DNA from: Gammaproteobacteria bacterium
Lineage (GTDB): Bacteria > Pseudomonadota > Gammaproteobacteria > Natronospirales > REEB76
DNA: 35,866 nt
Assembly (NCBI GenBank): GCA_035701605.1
Contig: DASSRV010000081.1
Span: 1-35,866, forward strand
Direction of reading: 5' to 3'
Shown here: piece by piece, positions 6,268 through 35,866 of the stretch
Layout: each line of letters starts with the position of its first letter
How positions within the stretch are numbered: the first letter of the stretch is position 1
Notes under the pieces: model-generated
Database searches by the model: none
What the model saw: the letters and a program-made list of their open reading frames with translations, nothing else
What the model was told of the DNA's origin: nothing
Program-made: the position numbers and the translations under genes

Positions 6268-6343
6268 TGGTGGGCCCACCAGGACTTGAACCTGGAACCA
6301 ACAGATTATGAGTCTGCTGCTCTAACCATTGAGCTATAGGCCC
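6268..6343 (-). tRNA. tRNA with CAT anticodon; elongator type, probably tRNA-Ile2 (lysidine-modified) rather than tRNA-Met
   Basis: The reverse complement is GGGCCTATAGCTCAATGGTTAGAGCAGCAGACTCATAATCTGTTGGTTCCAGGTTCAAGTCCTGGTGGGCCCACCA, which folds as a cloverleaf. The 1:72 pair is G-C, so it is not an initiator. C4-G69 and C5-G68 are present, and the overall sequence resembles E. coli ileX. The CCA end is encoded. Confidence 0.9.
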
Positions 6344-6434: not shown

Positions 6435-8381
<1,947 letters not shown>

Positions 8382-8468
8382 GGTGTTCCGTGTCGGAATG
8401 GGGCGCTTTTGAAAACGCCGGAGTGAAACGCTCAATTATATCGCAAAAGGCCGCTTTTTCCAGTTAAA

Positions 8469-10229
8469 TCAATCGGTTTTCGTGCCCGGGGCGGCCTGTT
8501 CCGGGCTCTCCGGCGCCGCCAGGAGGCGGCTCAGCTCGGCCTTTTCCGCGGGGCTCAGCGCCCGGCGGCCGGCTTCGGCAATCAGCTCATCGCGACGGCG
8601 CCCGGCGGGTCGGCGCACGAGGTCGGCCATGACCGCAGCAAATTCGGCCTCCATGGCCTCCGGCGGGGTGACCAGCTCGGCCTGGGCGAGCTTCATCAGC
8701 GTGGCGCCGGTTTCGCTGCCCCGCCAATGTTCCAGCAGGCCGGCCCCGTTGATATGGGGGTGGGCCTGGGCGAATTCCAGCAGCGCCTTGAGCACCTCCG
8801 TACCCTTGAGCGAAACGCCATCCAGTTCCGCCGGTGCCCCGGCCAGCCCGGCCAGTTTCGGCTGGCTGAGCAGGAGCGCGATCGCGCGTCGCACCGGGCT
8901 GGTCAGTTGTGGCCGGGGGGCCAGCGAGGCCGCCCGCTCCGCGGCCCCGGCCCGCGCTGTCCGGTTAAGGATAGTCAAGTTTTCGGGATTCACCTGGGCG
9001 AGGCGCGCGATTTCTTCGGCCAAGAGCTCCCGGAACATGCCCGCCGGCACCCGCGCCAGGTGCGGGCGGGCGAGCTCGACGAGCCGCGCGCGGCCTTCCG
9101 CGGAATCGAGATCGGTCTGCGCGGTGAGGCTCTCGCACAGGAAGCGCGATAGCGGCTGGGCGCCGGCCAGACGCGCCTCGAACGCCTCGCGACCTTCCTT
9201 GCGCACCAGCGTGTCCGGGTCCTCGCCTTCGGGCAGGAACAGGAATTTGATGTGCCGCCCCTCGCGCGCTTCGGGCAGCGCGTTTTCCAGCGCGCGCCAG
9301 GCGCCGCCGCGACCGGCCCGGTCGCCGTCGAAACAGAACACCACTTCCGGCGCCACCCGGAACAGCCGCTGCAGGTGATCCGCGGTGGTGGCGGTGCCGA
9401 GCGTGGCTACGGCATAGGCCACGCCGTGCTGATGCAGGGCCACCACGTCCATGTAGCCTTCCACCACCATGAGGCGCGGGATGCTGCGCAGTGCCTGACG
9501 TGCTTCGTAGAGACCGTACAGCTCGCGGCCCTTGTGGAACAGCGGGGTTTCCGGCGAGTTCAGGTACTTGGGTTCGCCCTGATCGAGCACCCGGCCGCCG
9601 AAGGCAATCAGGCGACCGCGGTTGTCGCGGATCGGGAACATGATGCGTTCACGGAACCGGTCGTAACAGCGGCCGTCGTCCTTGCGGATCAGCATGCCGG
9701 TCGCGAGCAGCGCGCGTTCGGCCTCGGCACCGAGTTGTTTCAGCAAGGTGTCCCAGCCGGCCGGCGCGTAACCGATGCCGAAGCGCGCGGCGATGTCGCC
9801 GCTCAGGCCGCGCTGCTTGAGGTAGGCGACGGCCGCGGGCGTGGCCCTGAGGGCGTCGCGATACAGGCGCGCGGCCTGATCCAGCACCGCGTACAGCGGT
9901 GCATTGCCGGATGCGTTGTCCTGGGTGCCGCGCTCCTCGGGCACGTCCACGCCGACGAGTCCCGCGAGCTCGCGCACCGCGTCCGGGAACTCCATGTGCT
10001 CGTAGTCCATGAGGAAACCGATGGCGGTGCCGTGCGCGCCGCAGCCGAAGCAGTGGTAGAACTGCTTGACCGGGCTCACGTAGAACGACGGGGTTTTCTC
10101 GTTGTGGAACGGGCAGCAGGCCGCGAATTCGCGACCGTGCTTCTTGAGCGGCACGCGCTTGTCTATGACCTCGACGATATCAATGCGCGTCAGCAGCTCT
10201 TCGATGAATCCCGGCGGGATGCGTGCCAT
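8469..10229 (-). CDS. dnaG: DNA primase DnaG
   Basis: Zinc ribbon CPFHNEKTPSFYVSPVKQFYHCFGCGAHG, a TOPRIM region (VVEGYMDVVAL ... CFDGDRAGR) and a C-terminal helicase-interaction domain. Confidence 0.95.
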   Translation of the reverse strand: MARIPPGFIEELLTRIDIVEVIDKRVPLKKHGREFAACCPFHNEKTPSFYVSPVKQFYHCFGCGAHGTAIGFLMDYEHMEFPDAVRELAGLVGVDVPEERGTQDNASGNAPLYAVLDQAARLYRDALRATPAAVAYLKQRGLSGDIAARFGIGYAPAGWDTLLKQLGAEAERALLATGMLIRKDDGRCYDRFRERIMFPIRDNRGRLIAFGGRVLDQGEPKYLNSPETPLFHKGRELYGLYEARQALRSIPRLMVVEGYMDVVALHQHGVAYAVATLGTATTADHLQRLFRVAPEVVFCFDGDRAGRGGAWRALENALPEAREGRHIKFLFLPEGEDPDTLVRKEGREAFEARLAGAQPLSRFLCESLTAQTDLDSAEGRARLVELARPHLARVPAGMFRELLAEEIARLAQVNPENLTILNRTARAGAAERAASLAPRPQLTSPVRRAIALLLSQPKLAGLAGAPAELDGVSLKGTEVLKALLEFAQAHPHINGAGLLEHWRGSETGATLMKLAQAELVTPPEAMEAEFAAVMADLVRRPAGRRRDELIAEAGRRALSPAEKAELSRLLAAPESPEQAAPGTKTD

Positions 10230-11129: not shown

Positions 11130-11158
11130 ATTCTACCGGCCGGCGTGTAGAATTGCAA
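11130..11158 (-). promoter_or_regulatory. Putative sigma-70 promoter of the rpsU-yqeY-dnaG-rpoD operon
   Basis: The minus strand reads TTGCAA-N17-TAGAAT (-35 at 11153-11158, -10 at 11130-11135). A second TAGAAT on the plus strand (11148-11153) forms an inverted repeat with it and may be the -10 of divergent tsaD. Confidence 0.45.
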
Positions 11159-11188
11159 AGCCTGACGCCACCCCGGGACCTGCTCCGC

Positions 11189-12199
11189 TTGCGCATCCTC
11201 GGCATCGAAACCTCCTGCGACGAGACCGGCGTCGCCGTCTATGACGGCGAGCGCGGGCTGCTGTCGCACGCGCTCTACAGCCAGATCGCGCTGCATGCCG
11301 AATACGGCGGGGTGGTGCCGGAACTGGCCTCGCGCGACCACGTGCGCAAGCTGCTGCCGCTGGTGCGCGGGGCGCTGGCCGAGGCGGGCAGCCGCGCCGA
11401 CCGGATTGACGGCATCGCCTACACCGCCGGGCCGGGGCTCCTGGGTGCGCTCTTGGTGGGAGCCTGTTTTGCCCGCGCGCTGGCCTTTGCCTGGAATGTG
11501 CCGGCGCTCGGGCTACACCACATGGAAGGGCATCTGCTGGCGCCCATGCTGGAGACGCCGCGCCCGGCGTTTCCGTTCGTGGCGCTCCTGGTCTCGGGCG
11601 GGCACACGCTCCTGGTGGAAGTGCAGGGCGTGGGTCGCTACACCACGCTCGGCGAATCGGTGGACGACGCGGCCGGCGAGGCCTTCGACAAGGTGGCGAA
11701 ATTGCTCCGCCTGCCGTATCCGGGCGGGCCGCACCTGGCAAAACTGGCACAGCAGGGCGTGGCCGGCCGCTTCGTGTTGCCGCGCCCCATGACCGACCGG
11801 CCGGGACTCGATTTCAGCTTCAGCGGCCTCAAGACCGCGGTGCTGACCACGCTTAAAAATGCGCCCGATGACGCCCAGACGCGCGCCGACATTGCACGCG
11901 CGTTCGAGGAGGCGGCCGTGGACACGCTCGCCATCAAGTGCGCACGCGCACTGGACCAGACCGGGCTCGATCGGCTGGTGGTGGCGGGCGGCGTGGGCGC
12001 GAACCAGTCGCTGCGCGCGCGGCTCAAGGCACTGGCAGCGGAACGCGGCGGCGAGGTGTTCTATCCGCGCGCCGAATTCTGCACCGACAACGGCGCCATG
12101 ATCGCCTACGCCGGGTACGTGCGACTGTCGGCGCAGCGCGACGTGGCGCCGACGCCGGTGACGGCACGCTGGCCGCTCGACAGCCTGACAGCGGCGTGA
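11189..12199 (+). CDS. tsaD: tRNA N6-adenosine threonylcarbamoyltransferase TsaD
   Basis: (M)[18 protein letters not shown]...SRDH...[10 protein letters not shown]...LLVSGGHT.... A TTG start at 11189 gives the canonical N-terminus. The longest ORF starts at TTG 11153, inside the rpsU promoter -35 box. Confidence 0.9.
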
Positions 12200-32857: not shown

Positions 32858-33044
32858 TCCGGGCCGGCCGGCCGGCGTGGAACACGCGAAATTCCACCGG
32901 GAGCTTCCCTTGCCGAAAGCTTTGTGGTTTACTCGCCGCATCCCAGATGTTGTGTTCAGCACTGCGACCCATCCGGCTCCGAAATGAGCTCGGACAGGCC
33001 GTAACTTATTTGCATAAGTCTTTGAATCAAAAGAAAATATTTAT

Positions 33045-33100: not shown

Positions 33101-33116
33101 GCACAACATCTTGTGG
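33101..33116 (+). promoter_or_regulatory. NrdR-box-like palindrome in the nrdJ leader
   Basis: gCACAACATCTTGTGg matches the recalled NrdR box consensus acaCwAtATaTwGtgt at about 12/16. I could not find a convincing second box at the usual spacing. Confidence 0.25.
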
Positions 33117-33274
33117 TTGTGCTTCCCCAGCTTTTGCACAGTTTATCCACGGATTTCAGGACCCCGGTCTGCAAGGGAAGCGATGGTGCAGACCCCAGCA
33201 ATACCAATAACAAGCAGGGTGGCTTGCCCCGCGCAGGGCGCCCGCATGCAAAACATGGAGCGCAGGCTTAAGTT

Positions 33275-35866
33275 ATGAAACCCGCAGAGCAAATGGTTGC
33301 CCTCGTTACCGAGATCCCCGTGCAGGAAGCGTCCGCAGACATCTGGGACAAGAAGTACCGCCTCAAGGCCAAGGACGGCACGATTCTGGACCAGACCGTG
33401 GACGACACCTGGCAGCGCGTGGCGCGCGCCCTGGCGGACGTCGAGGCGCCGGAAAAGCGCGAGCAGTGGTACGGCAAGTTCCTGTGGGCGCTCAGGCACG
33501 GCGCGATCCCGGCCGGCCGCATCACCTCCAATGCCGGCGCGCTGGCGCACAAGCCCGCGACCTCCACCATCAACTGTACGGTGTCCGGCACCATCCGCGA
33601 TTCCATGGACGACATCCTGGGCAAAGTGCACGAGGCCGGGTTGACGCTCAAGGCGGGCTGCGTGGCGCCCGGCACCTGGGTGCGCACCGAGCACGGGCTG
33701 GTGACGGTGGAACAGGCCGTCGGCGAACGTCACCGGCAAATCCTCAGCTATGACAGGGACGCCGGTCGTTTCGAGATGCGCCCGGTCATCAAGCACCTGA
33801 CCGTGGACGTGAAGCGCGCCGACAACATCGAAATCGTGGCCAACGGTGCGTCCCTGAAAACGTCCATCCGGCATCCGGTACTGGTGTACCGGCAGGGTGC
33901 GCTGGTGTACGTGCGTGCCGATGACGTGCAGCGGGATGACGCGCTCGTCCAGCATCGTTTTGCCTGGTCTGCCGATCCGGCTGGCGTCATGAACGCCTGG
34001 TTTGCCGGGGCGCACCTGGGGGATGGCAGCGCGCACGAAAAGAAAATGGCGTACAAGCCGACGCGCGCGTCGTGGGCGGCACGCGCCCGGTCCGCCGGCG
34101 CCCGTTTCGTATTCAAGATCCGGGCCGCGGAACGCGAAGTGGTGGAACGCTACGCGGAATTCTTCCGGGGCTTTTGCCGGAGCGAGGCGCAGGTCGCGGC
34201 GGCCGTGACGTCGAACGGTACGCCAGTATGGGATTACGCAGTCGCCAGTTTTGCCGCAAGCCGGGCCGTGGAACTGATTGACGGCCAGACCGGCAGCAAG
34301 ACCGTATCTCTGCGCGTCCCCGCCTGGATCAAATCGGAGCCGGAAAAATATTTCCTGCCGTTCCTCGCCGGTCTGCTGGACACGGACGGGACCGTCAGCC
34401 GCGAACGCGGCAGCGCCAGTCTCGCCACCCAGAATTACACCTTTGCCCGCGAACTGAAGGCGCTCCTGGCCCTGTTCGGGGTGCATGGCGCGCTGACCGT
34501 TCGCAAGCCGCGCAGCCACGCATTGAACGGGCACGAGGTGCGGGACAGCGGCGGAGTGATGCTGAAAATTTCCGATTCCGCCTTCCTGCAACGCGTTGCG
34601 CAGTACATGGCGGACAGCGGCAAGCGTACGCGGATTCTGGAATGCGCCAGCCAGTCGGGGCAGTACGATCATTACCGGATACCGGTGGCGCTGCGCGACG
34701 CCCTCGCCGAGCAATCCGCCCAGCTTGCGCACACCGAACGGCAGGCGCTCGGCTTCTATCATGGCTACCATCTGGGAGAAACGGTCAGCCGGATCTGGCT
34801 CGACCGCTGGGAAACCCGCTTTCCGCGCCTTGCGCCGCTCATCGCATTTGCCCGCACGCTGCGTCCGGTGGATGCGATCCGCCGTGCCGTGGATTTGCCC
34901 GAAACTTTTTACGATTTCGAGGTGGAAGGCAACCACAACTATCTCGCCGGCAACGACGGGTTGCTCGTGATCCACAATTGCGGCATCGGCTATGAATTTT
35001 CCACCATGCGTCCGCGCGGCGCCTATGTCGCGGGCGCCGGGGCCTACACGTCCGGGCCGCTGTCGTTCATGGATATCTACGACAAGATGTGCTTCACGGT
35101 GTCGTCCGCCGGCGGCCGGCGCGGCGCGCAGATGGGCACCTTCGATGTCGGCCATCCCGACGTGCTGGATTTCATTCGCGCCAAGCGCGAGAACGGCCGG
35201 CTGCGGCAGTTCAACCTGTCGCTCCTGGTGACGCGCGATTTCATGGAAGCCGTGAAGGCCGATGCGGACTGGAAGCTCGCGTTCCCCCTGGACAAGAAGG
35301 AAGTCGAGAGCGGGGATATTGCTCTCGACGATGCGGAACAGGTGGTGTGGCGCGAGTGGCCGACCACCCAGGGCTACATCGTGAACGCCGCGGGCCTCGT
35401 CGCCTGCAAGGTGTACAAGACCCTGCACGCGCGCCGCGTGTGGGACATGATCATGGCCTCCACCTACGACTTTGCCGAGCCCGGCTTCGTGCTCATAGAC
35501 AAGGTCAACGAAATGAACAACAACTGGTGGTGCGAAGACATTCGCGCGACGAACCCGTGCGGCGAGCAACCGCTGCCCCCTTACGGCGCGTGCCTGCTCG
35601 GGTCGATCAATCTCACCAAGTTCGTGCGCGATCCCTTCACCCCCAAGGCCCGCTTCGACTGGGACGAGTTCCGCGAAGTCGTCAAGGTCTTCACGCGGAT
35701 GCTCGACAACGTCGTCGAGGTCAACGGCCTGCCGCTTCCCGAGCAGCGCGAGGAGATAGCGCGCAAGCGCCGTCACGGAATGGGCTTCCTCGGCCTCGGT
35801 TCCGCGATCGCTTTGCTAGGGCTTCGCTACGGCTCGCCCGAGTCGATCCAGTTCACCGAGGACGTG
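33275..35866 (+). CDS. nrdJ: Class II (adenosylcobalamin-dependent) ribonucleotide reductase NrdJ, intein-containing; 3' end lies outside the window
   Basis: I translated this frame by hand from ATG 33275 (in-frame TAA at 33269) to the window end (864 codons) and met no stop. The N-extein reads ...AIPAGRITSNAGA...TINCTVSGTIRDSMDDILGKVHEAGLTLKAG. The C-extein reads CGIGYEFSTMRPRGAYVAGAGAYTSGPLSFMDIYDKMC...GGRRGAQMGT...ATNPCGEQPLPPYGACLLGSINL. It is missing from the ORF track because it has no stop inside the window. Confidence 0.9.
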   Translation, partial: MKPAEQMVALVTEIPVQEASADIWDKKYRLKAKDGTILDQTVDDTWQRVARALADVEAPEKREQWYGKFLWALRHGAIPAGRITSNAGALAHKPATSTINCTVSGTIRDSMDDILGKVHEAGLTLKAGCVAPGTWVRTEHGLVTVEQAVGERHRQILSYDRDAGRFEMRPVIKHLTVDVKRADNIEIVANGASLKTSIRHPVLVYRQGALVYVRADDVQRDDALVQHRFAWSADPAGVMNAWFAGAHLGDGSAHEKKMAYKPTRASWAARARSAGARFVFKIRAAEREVVERYAEFFRGFCRSEAQVAAAVTSNGTPVWDYAVASFAASRAVELIDGQTGSKTVSLRVPAWIKSEPEKYFLPFLAGLLDTDGTVSRERGSASLATQNYTFARELKALLALFGVHGALTVRKPRSHALNGHEVRDSGGVMLKISDSAFLQRVAQYMADSGKRTRILECASQSGQYDHYRIPVALRDALAEQSAQLAHTERQALGFYHGYHLGETVSRIWLDRWETRFPRLAPLIAFARTLRPVDAIRRAVDLPETFYDFEVEGNHNYLAGNDGLLVIHNCGIGYEFSTMRPRGAYVAGAGAYTSGPLSFMDIYDKMCFTVSSAGGRRGAQMGTFDVGHPDVLDFIRAKRENGRLRQFNLSLLVTRDFMEAVKADADWKLAFPLDKKEVESGDIALDDAEQVVWREWPTTQGYIVNAAGLVACKVYKTLHARRVWDMIMASTYDFAEPGFVLIDKVNEMNNNWWCEDIRATNPCGEQPLPPYGACLLGSINLTKFVRDPFTPKARFDWDEFREVVKVFTRMLDNVVEVNGLPLPEQREEIARKRRHGMGFLGLGSAIALLGLRYGSPESIQFTEDV
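33659..34978 (+). mobile_element. Intein (Hint splicing domain plus LAGLIDADG homing endonuclease), 440 aa, inside nrdJ
   Basis: It starts with Cys (CVAPGTWVRTEHG) and has a block-B-like KTSIRHPVLV. Two LAGLIDADG motifs are present: WFAGAHLGDGSA and FLAGLLDTDGTV. The C-terminal blocks read FYDFEVEGNHNYLAGNDGLLVIHN, followed by a +1 Cys (CGIGY). Confidence 0.85.

What the first reader, a model, noticed from the sequence alone, without database searches (positions are those of the whole stretch)
33659..34978. Full-length LAGLIDADG intein interrupts the class II ribonucleotide reductase gene and is hidden from the ORF track
The + strand frame starting at ATG 33275 stays open to the window end, so no stop-delimited ORF was reported for it. 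Its translation is an NrdJ-type RNR up to ...HEAGLTLKAG and resumes at CGIGYEFSTMRPRG.... The 440 aa in between carry every hallmark of a class 1 intein. These are Cys1 (CVAPGTW), a block-B S/TxxH (SIRH), two dodecapeptide endonuclease motifs (AGAHLGDGS and LAGLLDTDGT) and the terminal ...GLLVIHN followed by a +1 Cys. Both LAGLIDADG acidic residues are present, so the homing endonuclease may still be active. Base composition looks like the host gene, which suggests long residence. The insertion lies in a highly conserved substrate/effector-proximal loop, as is typical for inteins.
Basis: partly seen in the sequence, partly recalled or inferred. Interest (0 to 1): 0.7.

Follow-up and report, generated by a model that had tools for sequence, protein, structure and literature searches.

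The report
Intact homing intein inside nrdJ
The B12-dependent ribonucleotide reductase gene at the end of this bacterial window carries a complete 440-residue self-splicing intein with its own DNA-cutting enzyme; this is a real and well-preserved example of a well-known kind of selfish element, not a new one.

Summary
The + frame from ATG 33275 stays open for 864 codons to the window end. Codons 129-568 (nt 33659-34978) are a clean 440-aa insertion between LTLKAG and CGIGYEFS of a class II RNR (NrdJ). Intein-free homologues that are 85-88% identical read KAG|CGIGY without a gap.

The insert has every class 1 intein hallmark and two LAGLIDADG motifs with both catalytic Asp. It passes the Pfam and NCBIfam intein and LAGLIDADG thresholds. 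Its AlphaFold model matches PI-PfuI, the Pyrococcus furiosus RNR intein endonuclease, best (TM 0.66).

The same roughly 440-aa intein sits at the same codon in at least 74 other genomes, mostly Gammaproteobacteria. In that family the endonuclease region is as conserved as the splicing domain, with dN/dS about 0.04-0.25. Some pairs have inteins far more alike than their host genes, so the family is still moving.

Intein GC3 is 0.78 against 0.88 in the exteins, an offset typical of the family and not evidence of long residence. PI-PfuI sits two codons downstream (GG|TG), so the two inteins are related but not strictly allelic.

Verdict: a new member of a known kind, of low to moderate interest.

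The parts
33275..33658 (+). nrdJ N-extein, codons 1-128 (MKPAEQ...HEAGLTLKAG). It includes the Ribonuc_red_lgN domain and the redox Cys in STINCTV.
   Evidence: It aligns end to end with intein-free 715-aa NrdJ homologues.
33659..34978 (+). Intein, 440 codons: Cys1 ... His439-Asn440.
   Evidence: AlphaFold2 model with pLDDT 81.5 and pTM 0.83. Best Foldseek match is 1dq3 PI-PfuI, E 4.5e-18, TM 0.66.
33659..33973 (+). HINT splicing domain, N-terminal lobe (intein aa 1-105). Block A is CVAPGTWVRTEHG; block B is GASLKTSIRHPVLV (nt 33845-33886).
   Evidence: Beta-rich in the model. C1, T68, S69 and H72 are invariant in 74 family members. The boundary is approximate.
33974..34570 (+). LAGLIDADG endonuclease core (intein aa about 106-304). 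Motif 1 is AWFAGAHLGDGS (nt 33995-34030, D122); motif 2 is LPFLAGLLDTDGT (nt 34355-34393, D243).
   Evidence: Pfam LAGLIDADG_3, 42.5 bits. Helices 110-120 and 228-243 in the model. Fold matches to I-DmoI and I-Tsp061I. D122 and D243 are present in 74 of 74 members.
34571..34858 (+). Helical accessory region between the endonuclease core and the C-terminal splicing lobe (intein aa about 305-400). It is presumed to be DNA-binding.
   Evidence: Six helices in the model. PI-PfuI, TliVMA and PI-SceI all carry accessory domains. The DNA-binding function is inferred. The boundary is approximate.
34859..34978 (+). HINT splicing domain, C-terminal lobe (intein aa 401-440). Block F is ETFYDFEVEGNHNYLAGNDG; block G is LLVIHN.
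   Evidence: TIGR01443 intein_Cterm. It aligns to the PI-PfuI C-terminus ...TFYDLTVENYQNYLAGENGMIFVHN. D419, H439 and N440 are invariant.
34979..35866 (+). nrdJ C-extein, first 296 codons, starting with Cys+1 (CGIGYEFSTMRPRG...). It runs off the window; about 290 more codons are expected. It contains the intact NPCGE thiyl-radical motif at nt 35552-35566, a second known intein site that is empty here.
33102..33115 (+). Possible NrdR box, the palindrome CACAACATCTTGTG, 160 nt upstream of the nrdJ start.
   Evidence: It is the only match in the window, with 0 mismatches, to CACWANATNTWGTG. The consensus was recalled from the literature on NrdR regulons. Its function was not tested.

Best explanation
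nt 33659-34978 encode a bifunctional class 1 intein nested in frame in the class II (adenosylcobalamin-dependent) ribonucleotide reductase gene nrdJ of a high-GC gammaproteobacterial chromosome.

Inferred mechanism, following the canonical class 1 pathway:
- The roughly 1155-aa precursor is translated.
- Cys1 makes an N-S acyl shift at Gly(-1).
- Cys+1 attacks the thioester, giving a branched intermediate.
- Asn440 cyclises with the help of His439 and releases the intein.
- An S-N shift joins ...LKAG to CGIGYEFS..., restoring the conserved K-x-G-x-G-x-G...LRP strand of the RNR barrel. Only the spliced protein is then an active reductase.

The excised 440-aa protein is a monomeric double-motif LAGLIDADG endonuclease with an extra helical accessory region. 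It most likely still recognises the uninterrupted ...CTCAAGGCGGGC|TGCGGCATCGGCTAT... allele and cuts it. Repair from the intein-bearing copy then spreads the element (homing).

Shown here: the clean insertion, the complete motif set, the fold, purifying selection on the endonuclease part across the family, and recent horizontal movement of family members. Inferred only: splicing and cleavage activity of this particular copy.
For: - Clean 440-aa insertion relative to intein-free homologues, which read LTLKAG|CGIGY in 118 of the 120 best-scoring extein homologues (listed hits to the spliced extein); Cys+1 is native to the host clade.
- Profile hits above curated cut-offs for Intein_splicing, intein_Cterm, LAGLIDADG_3, Ribonuc_red_lgN and Ribonuc_red_lgC.
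- Best PDB sequence match is PI-PfuI, E 1.8e-8. The AF2 model (pLDDT 81.5) has PI-PfuI as best fold match (TM 0.66), followed by the TliVMA, PI-SceI and PI-TkoII inteins and then I-DmoI-type enzymes.
- 74 loci from GTDB genomes carry an intact intein at the identical junction, nearly all of exactly 440 aa.
- Mean column conservation is 0.74 for the endonuclease region, 0.74 for HINT-N and 0.82 for HINT-C.
- C1, T68, S69, H72, D122, D243, D419, H439 and N440 are invariant in 74 of 74 members. The window copy deviates at only 1 of 154 columns that are at least 95% conserved.
- dN/dS of the endonuclease region is 0.04-0.25 in 33 close pairs, and 0.09-0.15 for the window against its five nearest relatives. 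This is similar to the splicing domain and the exteins.
- There is evidence of mobility in the family. In L043/L052 the intein has dN 0.012-0.023 and dS 0.09-0.17 against extein dN 0.093 and dS 0.40-0.44; L025/L029 and L047/L056 behave likewise.
- Intein-bearing and intein-free alleles are interleaved in extein similarity: 20 of 65 intein+ alleles have an intein-free nearest neighbour.
- Syntenic relatives L081 and L082 (Hsp20-DegP-DUF2914 upstream) lack the intein.
Against: - No experiment shows splicing or DNA cleavage for this copy or any member of this clade.
- The window ends 296 codons into the C-extein, so integrity of the rest of nrdJ is unknown.
- The one deviation from the family consensus lies in splicing block F: the window has G-N-H-N-Y where 99% of relatives have x-H-N-N-Y. 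Its effect is unknown.
- dS against the nearest relatives is 1.2-1.8, close to saturation, so the window-specific dN/dS values are rough.
- Purifying selection on the endonuclease region would also be seen if it were kept for a reason other than homing.
Confidence: 0.85

Rival explanations
1. The intein is splicing-competent but its homing endonuclease has lost cleavage activity. The element is now inherited only vertically and is on the way to becoming a mini-intein or being lost (the late phase of the homing cycle).
For: - The window clusters with L001-L006 in both intein identity (72-80%) and extein identity (83-91%), which is compatible with vertical descent.
- Degenerate relatives exist: P0026 has a 381-aa intein with a deletion, and P0169 has AYWGDSS in place of AHLGDGS.
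- Inactive endonuclease domains with intact-looking motifs are documented for archaeal VMA inteins (PMC8966425).
Against: - Both catalytic Asp are kept.
- Only 1 of 154 conserved columns deviates, and that column is in the splicing block rather than the endonuclease.
- The endonuclease region has dN/dS of 0.09-0.15 on the window's own branch pairs.
- Length is exactly the family mode of 440 aa.
Confidence: 0.12
2. The intein is retained because it benefits the host. For example, it could act as a conditional (redox- or stress-gated) switch that delays maturation of NrdJ through a Cys1/Cys+1 disulfide, or its endonuclease region could have acquired a host function.
For: - Strong purifying selection acts over the whole element in more than 70 species.
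- Both junction nucleophiles are Cys, and the site is inside a catalytic-barrel motif of an essential enzyme.
- Conditional splicing of other inteins is known from the literature. This point is recalled and was not tested here.
Against: - Many close relatives, including syntenic ones, do without the intein.
- The distribution is patchy.
- Intein similarity exceeds host-gene similarity in some pairs, which points to selfish spread.
- Nothing in the sequence distinguishes it from ordinary homing inteins.
Confidence: 0.05
3. It is not an intein at all. It could be a lineage-specific NrdJ domain, a pseudogene insertion, or a chimeric misassembly.
For: None was found. The only formal gap is that the gene is truncated by the window end.
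Against: - Orthologues lack the segment precisely.
- All splicing blocks, profile hits and the fold are intein-specific.
- The same arrangement is seen independently in at least 74 assemblies.
- The frame is open throughout.
Confidence: 0.01

Closest known systems
PI-PfuI (Pfu RIR1-1 intein of the Pyrococcus furiosus class II RNR; PDB 1dq3)
   Same: It has the same host enzyme family and the same K-x-G-G-G-x-G...LRP motif. It has the same architecture: a HINT domain split by a double-motif LAGLIDADG endonuclease plus an accessory domain. Block B is the same (T-S-x-x-H) and block F/G is very similar (TFYD..VE...NYLAG..G....HN). It is the best PDB match by sequence (E 1.8e-8) and by fold (TM 0.66).
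   Different: Only about 17% identical over the structural alignment. The PI-PfuI junction is GG|TG with Thr+1 (PMC10287962), which is position -8 from the Arg of LRP. The window intein is at AG|CG with Cys+1, position -10, two codons upstream. One is archaeal and hyperthermophilic, the other a mesophilic gammaproteobacterial lineage.
The same-site intein family in gammaproteobacterial nrdJ (Luteimonas, Rhodanobacter, Dyella, Dokdonella, Sulfuricaulis, Thiohalomonas, Methylonatrum, Halomonas sp., Competibacteraceae and Methylococcaceae MAGs, and others)
   Same: The junction is identical (LTLKAG|C...VIHN|CGIGYEFS). Length is about 440 aa. Identity to the window intein is 58-80%. The window is a member of this family.
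   Different: The best match is only 80% (L001), so this exact copy or organism is not in the collections searched. Public records label these proteins 'hypothetical protein' or 'LAGLIDADG family homing endonuclease, partial'. I found no open-access paper describing this allele.
The second nrdJ intein site NP|CGE, e.g. Azotobacter chroococcum NrdJa aa 321-690 (PMC4465626)
   Same: It has the same host gene and is also a LAGLIDADG-type intein. It co-occurs with the window-type intein in 23 of 48 complete related genes.
   Different: It is a different site, immediately before the thiyl-radical Cys, and a different intein of about 375 aa starting CVTADT. In the window this site is empty: NPCGEQPLPPYG is intact at nt 35552 onward.
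PI-SceI (yeast VMA1 intein), TliVMA and PI-TkoII inteins
   Same: They are bifunctional inteins that combine a HINT domain, a LAGLIDADG endonuclease and an accessory DNA-binding domain. They are significant fold matches (E 1e-13 to 1e-9).
   Different: They have different host proteins and sites, 12-15% identity and lower TM-scores (0.45-0.60).

Membership tests
Class 1 intein (HINT/Hedgehog-intein splicing domain) | An in-frame insertion that is precisely absent from orthologues, with the flanks rejoining into a conserved host motif. | tested here: met
   A 440-column gap in five intein-free NrdJ between LTLKAG and CGIGYEFS. 118 of the 120 best-scoring extein homologues read LTLKAGCGIGY.
Class 1 intein (HINT/Hedgehog-intein splicing domain) | Nucleophile at intein position 1 (Cys/Ser) and at extein +1 (Cys/Ser/Thr). 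| tested here: met
   Cys1 (TGC 33659-33661) and Cys+1 (TGC 34979-34981). Cys1 is invariant in 74 of 74 relatives; CG follows the intein in every junction listed.
Class 1 intein (HINT/Hedgehog-intein splicing domain) | Block B T/S-x-x-H, block F Asp, and block G penultimate His with terminal Asn. | tested here: met
   T68-S69-I-R-H72, D419 and H439-N440 are all invariant in the family. PI-PfuI has the same T-S-x-x-H block B. Caveat: in block F the window has N425-H426 where relatives have H425-N426.
Class 1 intein (HINT/Hedgehog-intein splicing domain) | Match to curated intein profiles above threshold, and a HINT fold. | tested here: met
   PF14890 scores 38.8 bits against a cut-off of 35.8. 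TIGR01443 scores 27 bits against 15.6. Foldseek hits to intein structures and mini-inteins, with the top five matches at E 4.5e-18 to 1.9e-9.
Class 1 intein (HINT/Hedgehog-intein splicing domain) | Autocatalytic protein splicing demonstrated. | not testable with these tools
   This needs expression of a minigene and detection of ligated exteins plus free intein.
LAGLIDADG homing endonuclease (monomeric, double-motif, intein-nested) | Two LAGLIDADG helices, each ending in a catalytic acidic residue. | tested here: met
   AWFAGAHLGD122GS and LPFLAGLLDTD243GT, which are helices 110-120 and 228-243 in the model. Both Asp are present in 74 of 74 members.
LAGLIDADG homing endonuclease (monomeric, double-motif, intein-nested) | Profile and fold match. 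| tested here: met
   PF14528 scores 42.5 bits against a cut-off of 22.5. Fold hits to I-DmoI, I-Tsp061I, E-DreI and I-WcaI with TM-score normalised to the target of 0.48-0.64.
LAGLIDADG homing endonuclease (monomeric, double-motif, intein-nested) | The endonuclease domain is under purifying selection, not decaying. | tested here: met
   dN/dS is 0.04-0.25 in 33 family pairs and 0.09-0.15 for the window against L001-L006. Conservation equals that of the splicing domain.
LAGLIDADG homing endonuclease (monomeric, double-motif, intein-nested) | Site-specific double-strand cleavage of the intein-less allele, and homing. | not testable with these tools
   There is only indirect support: intein similarity exceeds extein similarity in some pairs, and the distribution is patchy.
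PI-PfuI / Pfu RIR1-1 allele (strict allelic membership means the identical insertion point) | The same insertion point in the host motif (GG|TG, +1 at position -8 from the Arg of LRP). | tested here: not met
   The window junction is AG|CG with +1 at position -10. The PI-PfuI junction GG|TG is taken from PMC10287962. The window intein is therefore a relative in the same motif, not the same allele.
Class II ribonucleotide reductase NrdJ (host gene) | RNR all-alpha and barrel domains, the NPCGE thiyl-radical loop, and closest homologues being adenosylcobalamin-dependent RNR. | tested here: met
   PF00317 and PF02867. TIGR02504 NrdJ_Z is the best family at 370 bits; this is below its 399.95 cut-off only because the protein is truncated and interrupted. 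Homologues that are 85-88% identical are named adenosylcobalamin-dependent RNR. Best PDB match is T. maritima NrdJ 1xje.
Class II ribonucleotide reductase NrdJ (host gene) | A complete, uninterrupted reading frame to the natural stop. | not testable with these tools
   The window ends at codon 864 of an expected total of about 1155.

The most novel reading that the evidence does not exclude
The intein is more than a parasite. Its retention at full length under strong purifying selection in more than 70 lineages, with Cys at both junctions inside a catalytic-barrel motif of an essential enzyme, might reflect domestication as a conditional (for example redox-gated) post-translational switch on deoxynucleotide supply. 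A more modest variant has actual support here. This intein lineage has hopped between three staggered codons (-10, -8, -6) of one Gly-rich RNR motif, wherever a Cys/Thr nucleophile is available. That would be a documented case of short-range ectopic transposition of inteins.
Probability: 0.08. Interest if true: 0.55.

Novelty: new member of a known kind. Interest (0 to 1): 0.25.

Why it matters
- **Annotation.** The practical point is that the gene would be missed or mis-called. A stop-delimited ORF list shows only a spurious 877-aa antisense ORF. Public relatives are mostly labelled 'hypothetical' or 'partial LAGLIDADG endonuclease' rather than nrdJ with an intein.
- **Biology.** RNR is the classic intein host, so one more intein is expected rather than surprising. 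This clade is nevertheless large, uniformly full-length, under selection and apparently still moving. That makes it a good natural system for studying the homing cycle in mesophilic bacteria. It is also a possible source of a new rare-cutting endonuclease and of a Cys/Cys splicing domain.
- **Staggered sites.** Related inteins sit at staggered positions in one motif. This bears on how inteins reach new sites.

Tried and rejected
- **Source contig.** An exact-sequence look-up of the neighbouring DegP-like protein found nothing.
- **Upstream RNA elements.** Rfam found nothing upstream of nrdJ at gathering or E<=1 thresholds, so there is no B12 riboswitch. No sigma-70-like promoter was found by the simple scan.
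- **Phage origin.** tblastn of the intein against 50,697 phage records gave only two weak partial LAGLIDADG hits, so there is no sign of a phage source.
- **InBase allele letter.** Soucy et al. 2014 list rir1-b in Thioalkalivibrio, Xanthomonas and a zetaproteobacterium, but the text does not give the site. I could not decide whether rir1-b is this site or the NP|CGE site, so I assign no letter.
- **YN00 dN/dS.** It failed on most window pairs because of saturation; NG86 values are reported instead.
- **Second-intein regex.** My regex for the second intein confirmed only 10 loci although 23 have the extra roughly 375 aa. The remainder were not inspected individually.
- **Composition as a sign of recent arrival.** This was rejected because the GC3 offset is family-wide.
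- **Co-conversion signature.** TATGAATTT at codons +5 to +7 occurs in 25 of 74 intein+ alleles against 3 of 80 intein-free alleles (p about 1e-6). It weakens to 4 of 41 against 0 of 39 among high-GC3 alleles and is not phylogenetically corrected. I treat it as suggestive only.
Full report
**Observation**

Translating window 33275-35866 on the + strand gives 864 codons without a stop. An in-frame TAA lies at 33269, immediately upstream of the ATG. Because the frame runs off the window it is absent from the mechanical ORF list. That list shows instead an 877-aa antisense ORF, 33143-35776. The antisense ORF has no Pfam hit and the mirror-image GC-by-codon-position pattern of a shadow ORF: 0.82/0.46/0.65 against 0.65/0.45/0.83 for the sense frame.

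**What it is**

Pfam places Ribonuc_red_lgN at residues 18-88 and Ribonuc_red_lgC at 563-863. Between them lie Intein_splicing (38.8 bits, cut-off 35.8) and LAGLIDADG_3 (42.5 bits, cut-off 22.5). NCBIfam gives NrdJ_Z as the best family and intein_Cterm above its cut-off.

A search with the conceptually spliced extein returned thousands of NrdJ proteins. The best are 715 aa, 85-88% identical, and have no intein domains. Aligned with the window protein they show a single clean 440-column gap between LTLKAG and CGIGYEFS. 118 of the 120 listed read LTLKAGCGIGY, so Cys+1 is a native residue of this NrdJ clade and not something the intein brought in.

Against T. maritima NrdJ (1xje), Cys+1 aligns with G161 of the K-V-G-G-G-V-G-S-N-F-S-E-L-R-P strand. 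The site is therefore in one of the most conserved RNR motifs. Its proximity to the effector and substrate loops is prior structural knowledge and was not tested here.

**Structure**

An AlphaFold2 model built on a 9-sequence family alignment has pLDDT 81.5 and pTM 0.83. It shows beta-rich N- and C-terminal lobes, two long helices at the LAGLIDADG motifs (110-120, 228-243) and a helical region at about 305-400.

Foldseek against the PDB ranks PI-PfuI (1dq3), the intein endonuclease of the Pyrococcus furiosus RNR, first at E 4.5e-18 and TM 0.66. The TliVMA, PI-SceI and PI-TkoII inteins follow, then free-standing double-motif enzymes such as I-DmoI. PI-PfuI is also the best PDB hit by sequence, with a striking C-terminal match: TFYDFEVEGNHNYLAGNDGLLVIHN against TFYDLTVENYQNYLAGENGMIFVHN.

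**Family and evolution**

The intein alone finds 47 protein clusters, all NrdJ fragments from Gammaproteobacteria-type MAGs. A scan of one genome per GTDB species found 135 encoding loci, of which 80 were fetched. The taxa include Luteimonas, Rhodanobacter, Dyella, Dokdonella, Sulfuricaulis, Thiohalomonas, Methylonatrum, a Halomonas strain, Competibacteraceae, Methylococcaceae and some Zetaproteobacteria.

In 74 of the 80 loci I could extract an intact intein at the identical junction LTLKAG|C...VIHN|CGIGYEFS, almost always of exactly 440 aa.

- Column conservation is the same in the endonuclease region (0.74) as in the N-terminal splicing lobe (0.74).
- All catalytic residues of both activities are invariant: C1, T68/S69/H72, D122, D243, D419, H439 and N440.
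- The window copy deviates from the family at one of 154 columns that are at least 95% conserved. This is an N-H for H-N swap in block F.
- Codon-level comparison of 33 pairs with at least 80% intein identity gives dN/dS of 0.04-0.25 for the endonuclease region, like the splicing domain and the exteins.
- For the window against its five nearest relatives the values are 0.09-0.15, with dS near saturation.

The endonuclease part is therefore being maintained by selection and is not decaying.

Several observations point to ongoing mobility in the family.

- In some pairs the intein is much more similar than the host gene. For L043/L052 the intein has dN 0.012-0.023 and dS 0.09-0.17, while the exteins have dN 0.093 and dS 0.40-0.44. 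L025/L029 and L047/L056 behave the same way.
- Some hosts have inteins of very different composition. In the Halomonas locus L080 the intein GC3 is 0.47 against 0.89 in the exteins.
- Intein-bearing and intein-free alleles are interleaved in extein similarity space.
- The two closest intein-free relatives with DNA in hand (L081, L082) share the window's upstream synteny Hsp20-DegP-DUF2914 but have an uninterrupted nrdJ.

The window's own copy clusters with L001-L006 in both intein and extein. That fits vertical descent within that small clade.

**Composition**

Overall GC is similar, but GC3 is 0.78 in the intein against 0.87-0.89 in the exteins. Across the family, intein GC3 is lower than extein GC3 in 71 of 74 loci. 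The mean offset is 0.11, and intein GC3 tracks host GC3 with slope about 1. The window is therefore typical, and its composition argues neither for a recent arrival nor specifically for long residence.

**Relation to known inteins**

A profile search of 1.84 billion representatives found 186 proteins at E<=1e-10. I parsed the C-terminal junctions of 74 long hits, counting from the Arg of the LRP motif. They show that relatives of this intein sit in the same RNR motif but at three staggered positions:
- +1 residue at -10: ...K-x-x|intein|C-G-[IV]-G..., 25 proteins, the window's site.
- +1 residue at -8: ...G-G-G|intein|[TC]-G..., 46 proteins.
- +1 residue at -6: ...G-G-G-V-G|intein|T-D-I-S..., 3 proteins.

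The PI-PfuI junction is GG|TG (PMC10287962). That is the -8 site, two codons downstream of the window's. The two inteins are therefore relatives in the same motif but not strictly allelic.

Within one divergent clade (the CVEEN... inteins in KRR-type NrdJ), the nearest neighbours of the -8 inteins are -10 inteins at 40-44% identity. This suggests short-range site shifts within the Gly-rich motif. That is a side observation on the wider family and rests on pairwise identities only.

A second, unrelated intein of about 375 aa starting CVTADT occupies the NP|CGE site in 23 of 48 complete related genes. It corresponds to the Azotobacter chroococcum NrdJa intein described in PMC4465626. That site is empty in the window.

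**Mechanism**

The canonical class 1 pathway applies by inference. The steps are an N-S shift at Cys1, trans-thioesterification to Cys+1, Asn440 cyclisation assisted by His439, and an S-N shift. This restores KAG-CGIGY and hence an active reductase.

The excised protein is predicted to be a monomeric double-motif LAGLIDADG enzyme that cuts the uninterrupted junction and spreads by repair-mediated homing. Splicing and cleavage were not testable here, and they are the main residual uncertainty.

A weak hint of co-conversion or target preference is that the AT-ending codons TAT-GAA-TTT at +5 to +7 occur in 25 of 74 intein+ alleles but 3 of 80 intein-free alleles. This is not corrected for phylogeny, and it fades among high-GC3 alleles.

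**Context**

The window is ordinary bacterial chromosome. It carries rpoD, dnaG, tsaD, a tRNA, an S41 peptidase, an aldehyde dehydrogenase, an SLT transglycosylase, an ABC-2 transporter, DUF2914, DegP and Hsp20 upstream of nrdJ. No riboswitch lies upstream of nrdJ. A perfect NrdR-box-like palindrome lies 160 nt before the start.

**Verdict**

This is a genuine, intact member of a large and apparently still mobile intein family in gammaproteobacterial nrdJ. It is a new member of a known kind, of low to moderate interest.

Noticed in passing
window 33143-35776 (-): An 877-aa antisense ORF overlaps almost the whole nrdJ/intein frame. It has no Pfam hit and a mirrored GC-by-position pattern (0.82/0.46/0.65). 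It is a shadow ORF typical of high-GC DNA and a trap for ORF-based annotation.
   Followed up: yes
window 33102-33115 (+): CACAACATCTTGTG is a perfect match to an NrdR-box-like palindrome (CACWANATNTWGTG). It is the only match in the window and lies 160 nt upstream of the nrdJ ATG in a local GC trough of about 0.50. A weaker half-related sequence, CCCAGATGTTGTGTTC, lies near 32943. Regulation by NrdR is plausible but was not tested.
   Followed up: partly
window 35552-35566 (NPCGE); loci L002, L004, L006, L013, L018, L021, L024, L025, L029, L031 and others: About half of the related nrdJ genes (23 of 48 complete ones) carry a second intein of about 375 aa (CVTADT...) immediately before the thiyl-radical Cys (NP|CGE). 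This is the site of the published Azotobacter chroococcum NrdJa intein. That site is empty in the window.
   Followed up: partly
proteins P0175-P0307 (distant relatives found with the intein profile): Relatives of this intein occupy three staggered points, 2 and 4 codons apart, of the same K-x-G-G-G-x-G...LRP motif. The +1 residue is at -10 (25 proteins), -8 (46 proteins, including the PI-PfuI-type GG|TG junction) or -6 (3 proteins). In one clade the nearest relatives of the -8 inteins are -10 inteins. This suggests short-range site shifts that follow wherever a Cys/Thr is available.
   Followed up: partly
window 34991-34999 (codons +5 to +7 of the C-extein, TAT GAA TTT): Three consecutive A/T-ending codons sit right after the intein in a gene with GC3 of 0.88. 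The same 9-mer is found in 25 of 74 intein-bearing alleles but 3 of 80 intein-free alleles. It may be a co-conversion tract or a target preference of the endonuclease. The comparison is not phylogenetically controlled.
   Followed up: partly
window 34931-34936 (intein aa 425-426): The only departure of the window intein from 154 near-invariant family columns is Asn-His where 99% of relatives have His-Asn, in splicing block F. The window order resembles the canonical H-N-[FY]-x-A of many other inteins. The effect on splicing is unknown.
   Followed up: no
L080 (Halomonas sp. McH1-25), L064/L066, L045, L057: In these genomes the intein GC3 is 0.2-0.4 below that of the host nrdJ; in L080 it is 0.47 against 0.89. 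This is far beyond the family-wide offset of 0.11 and suggests recent acquisition from lower-GC donors.
   Followed up: no
L081 8334-9107 and L082 8268-9035 (downstream of intein-free nrdJ): A separate TSCPD-domain gene of about 255 aa follows nrdJ in the syntenic relatives. The same is probably true just beyond the window end. In L082 a DndB/methyltransferase/restriction-like cluster follows it.
   Followed up: no
window 6271-6343 (-), 6435-8435 (-), 8469-10229 (-), 11153-12199 (+): The window holds a tRNA gene, rpoD, dnaG and tsaD, which form the conserved macromolecular-synthesis neighbourhood. This confirms that the window is chromosomal and not from a mobile element.
   Followed up: yes
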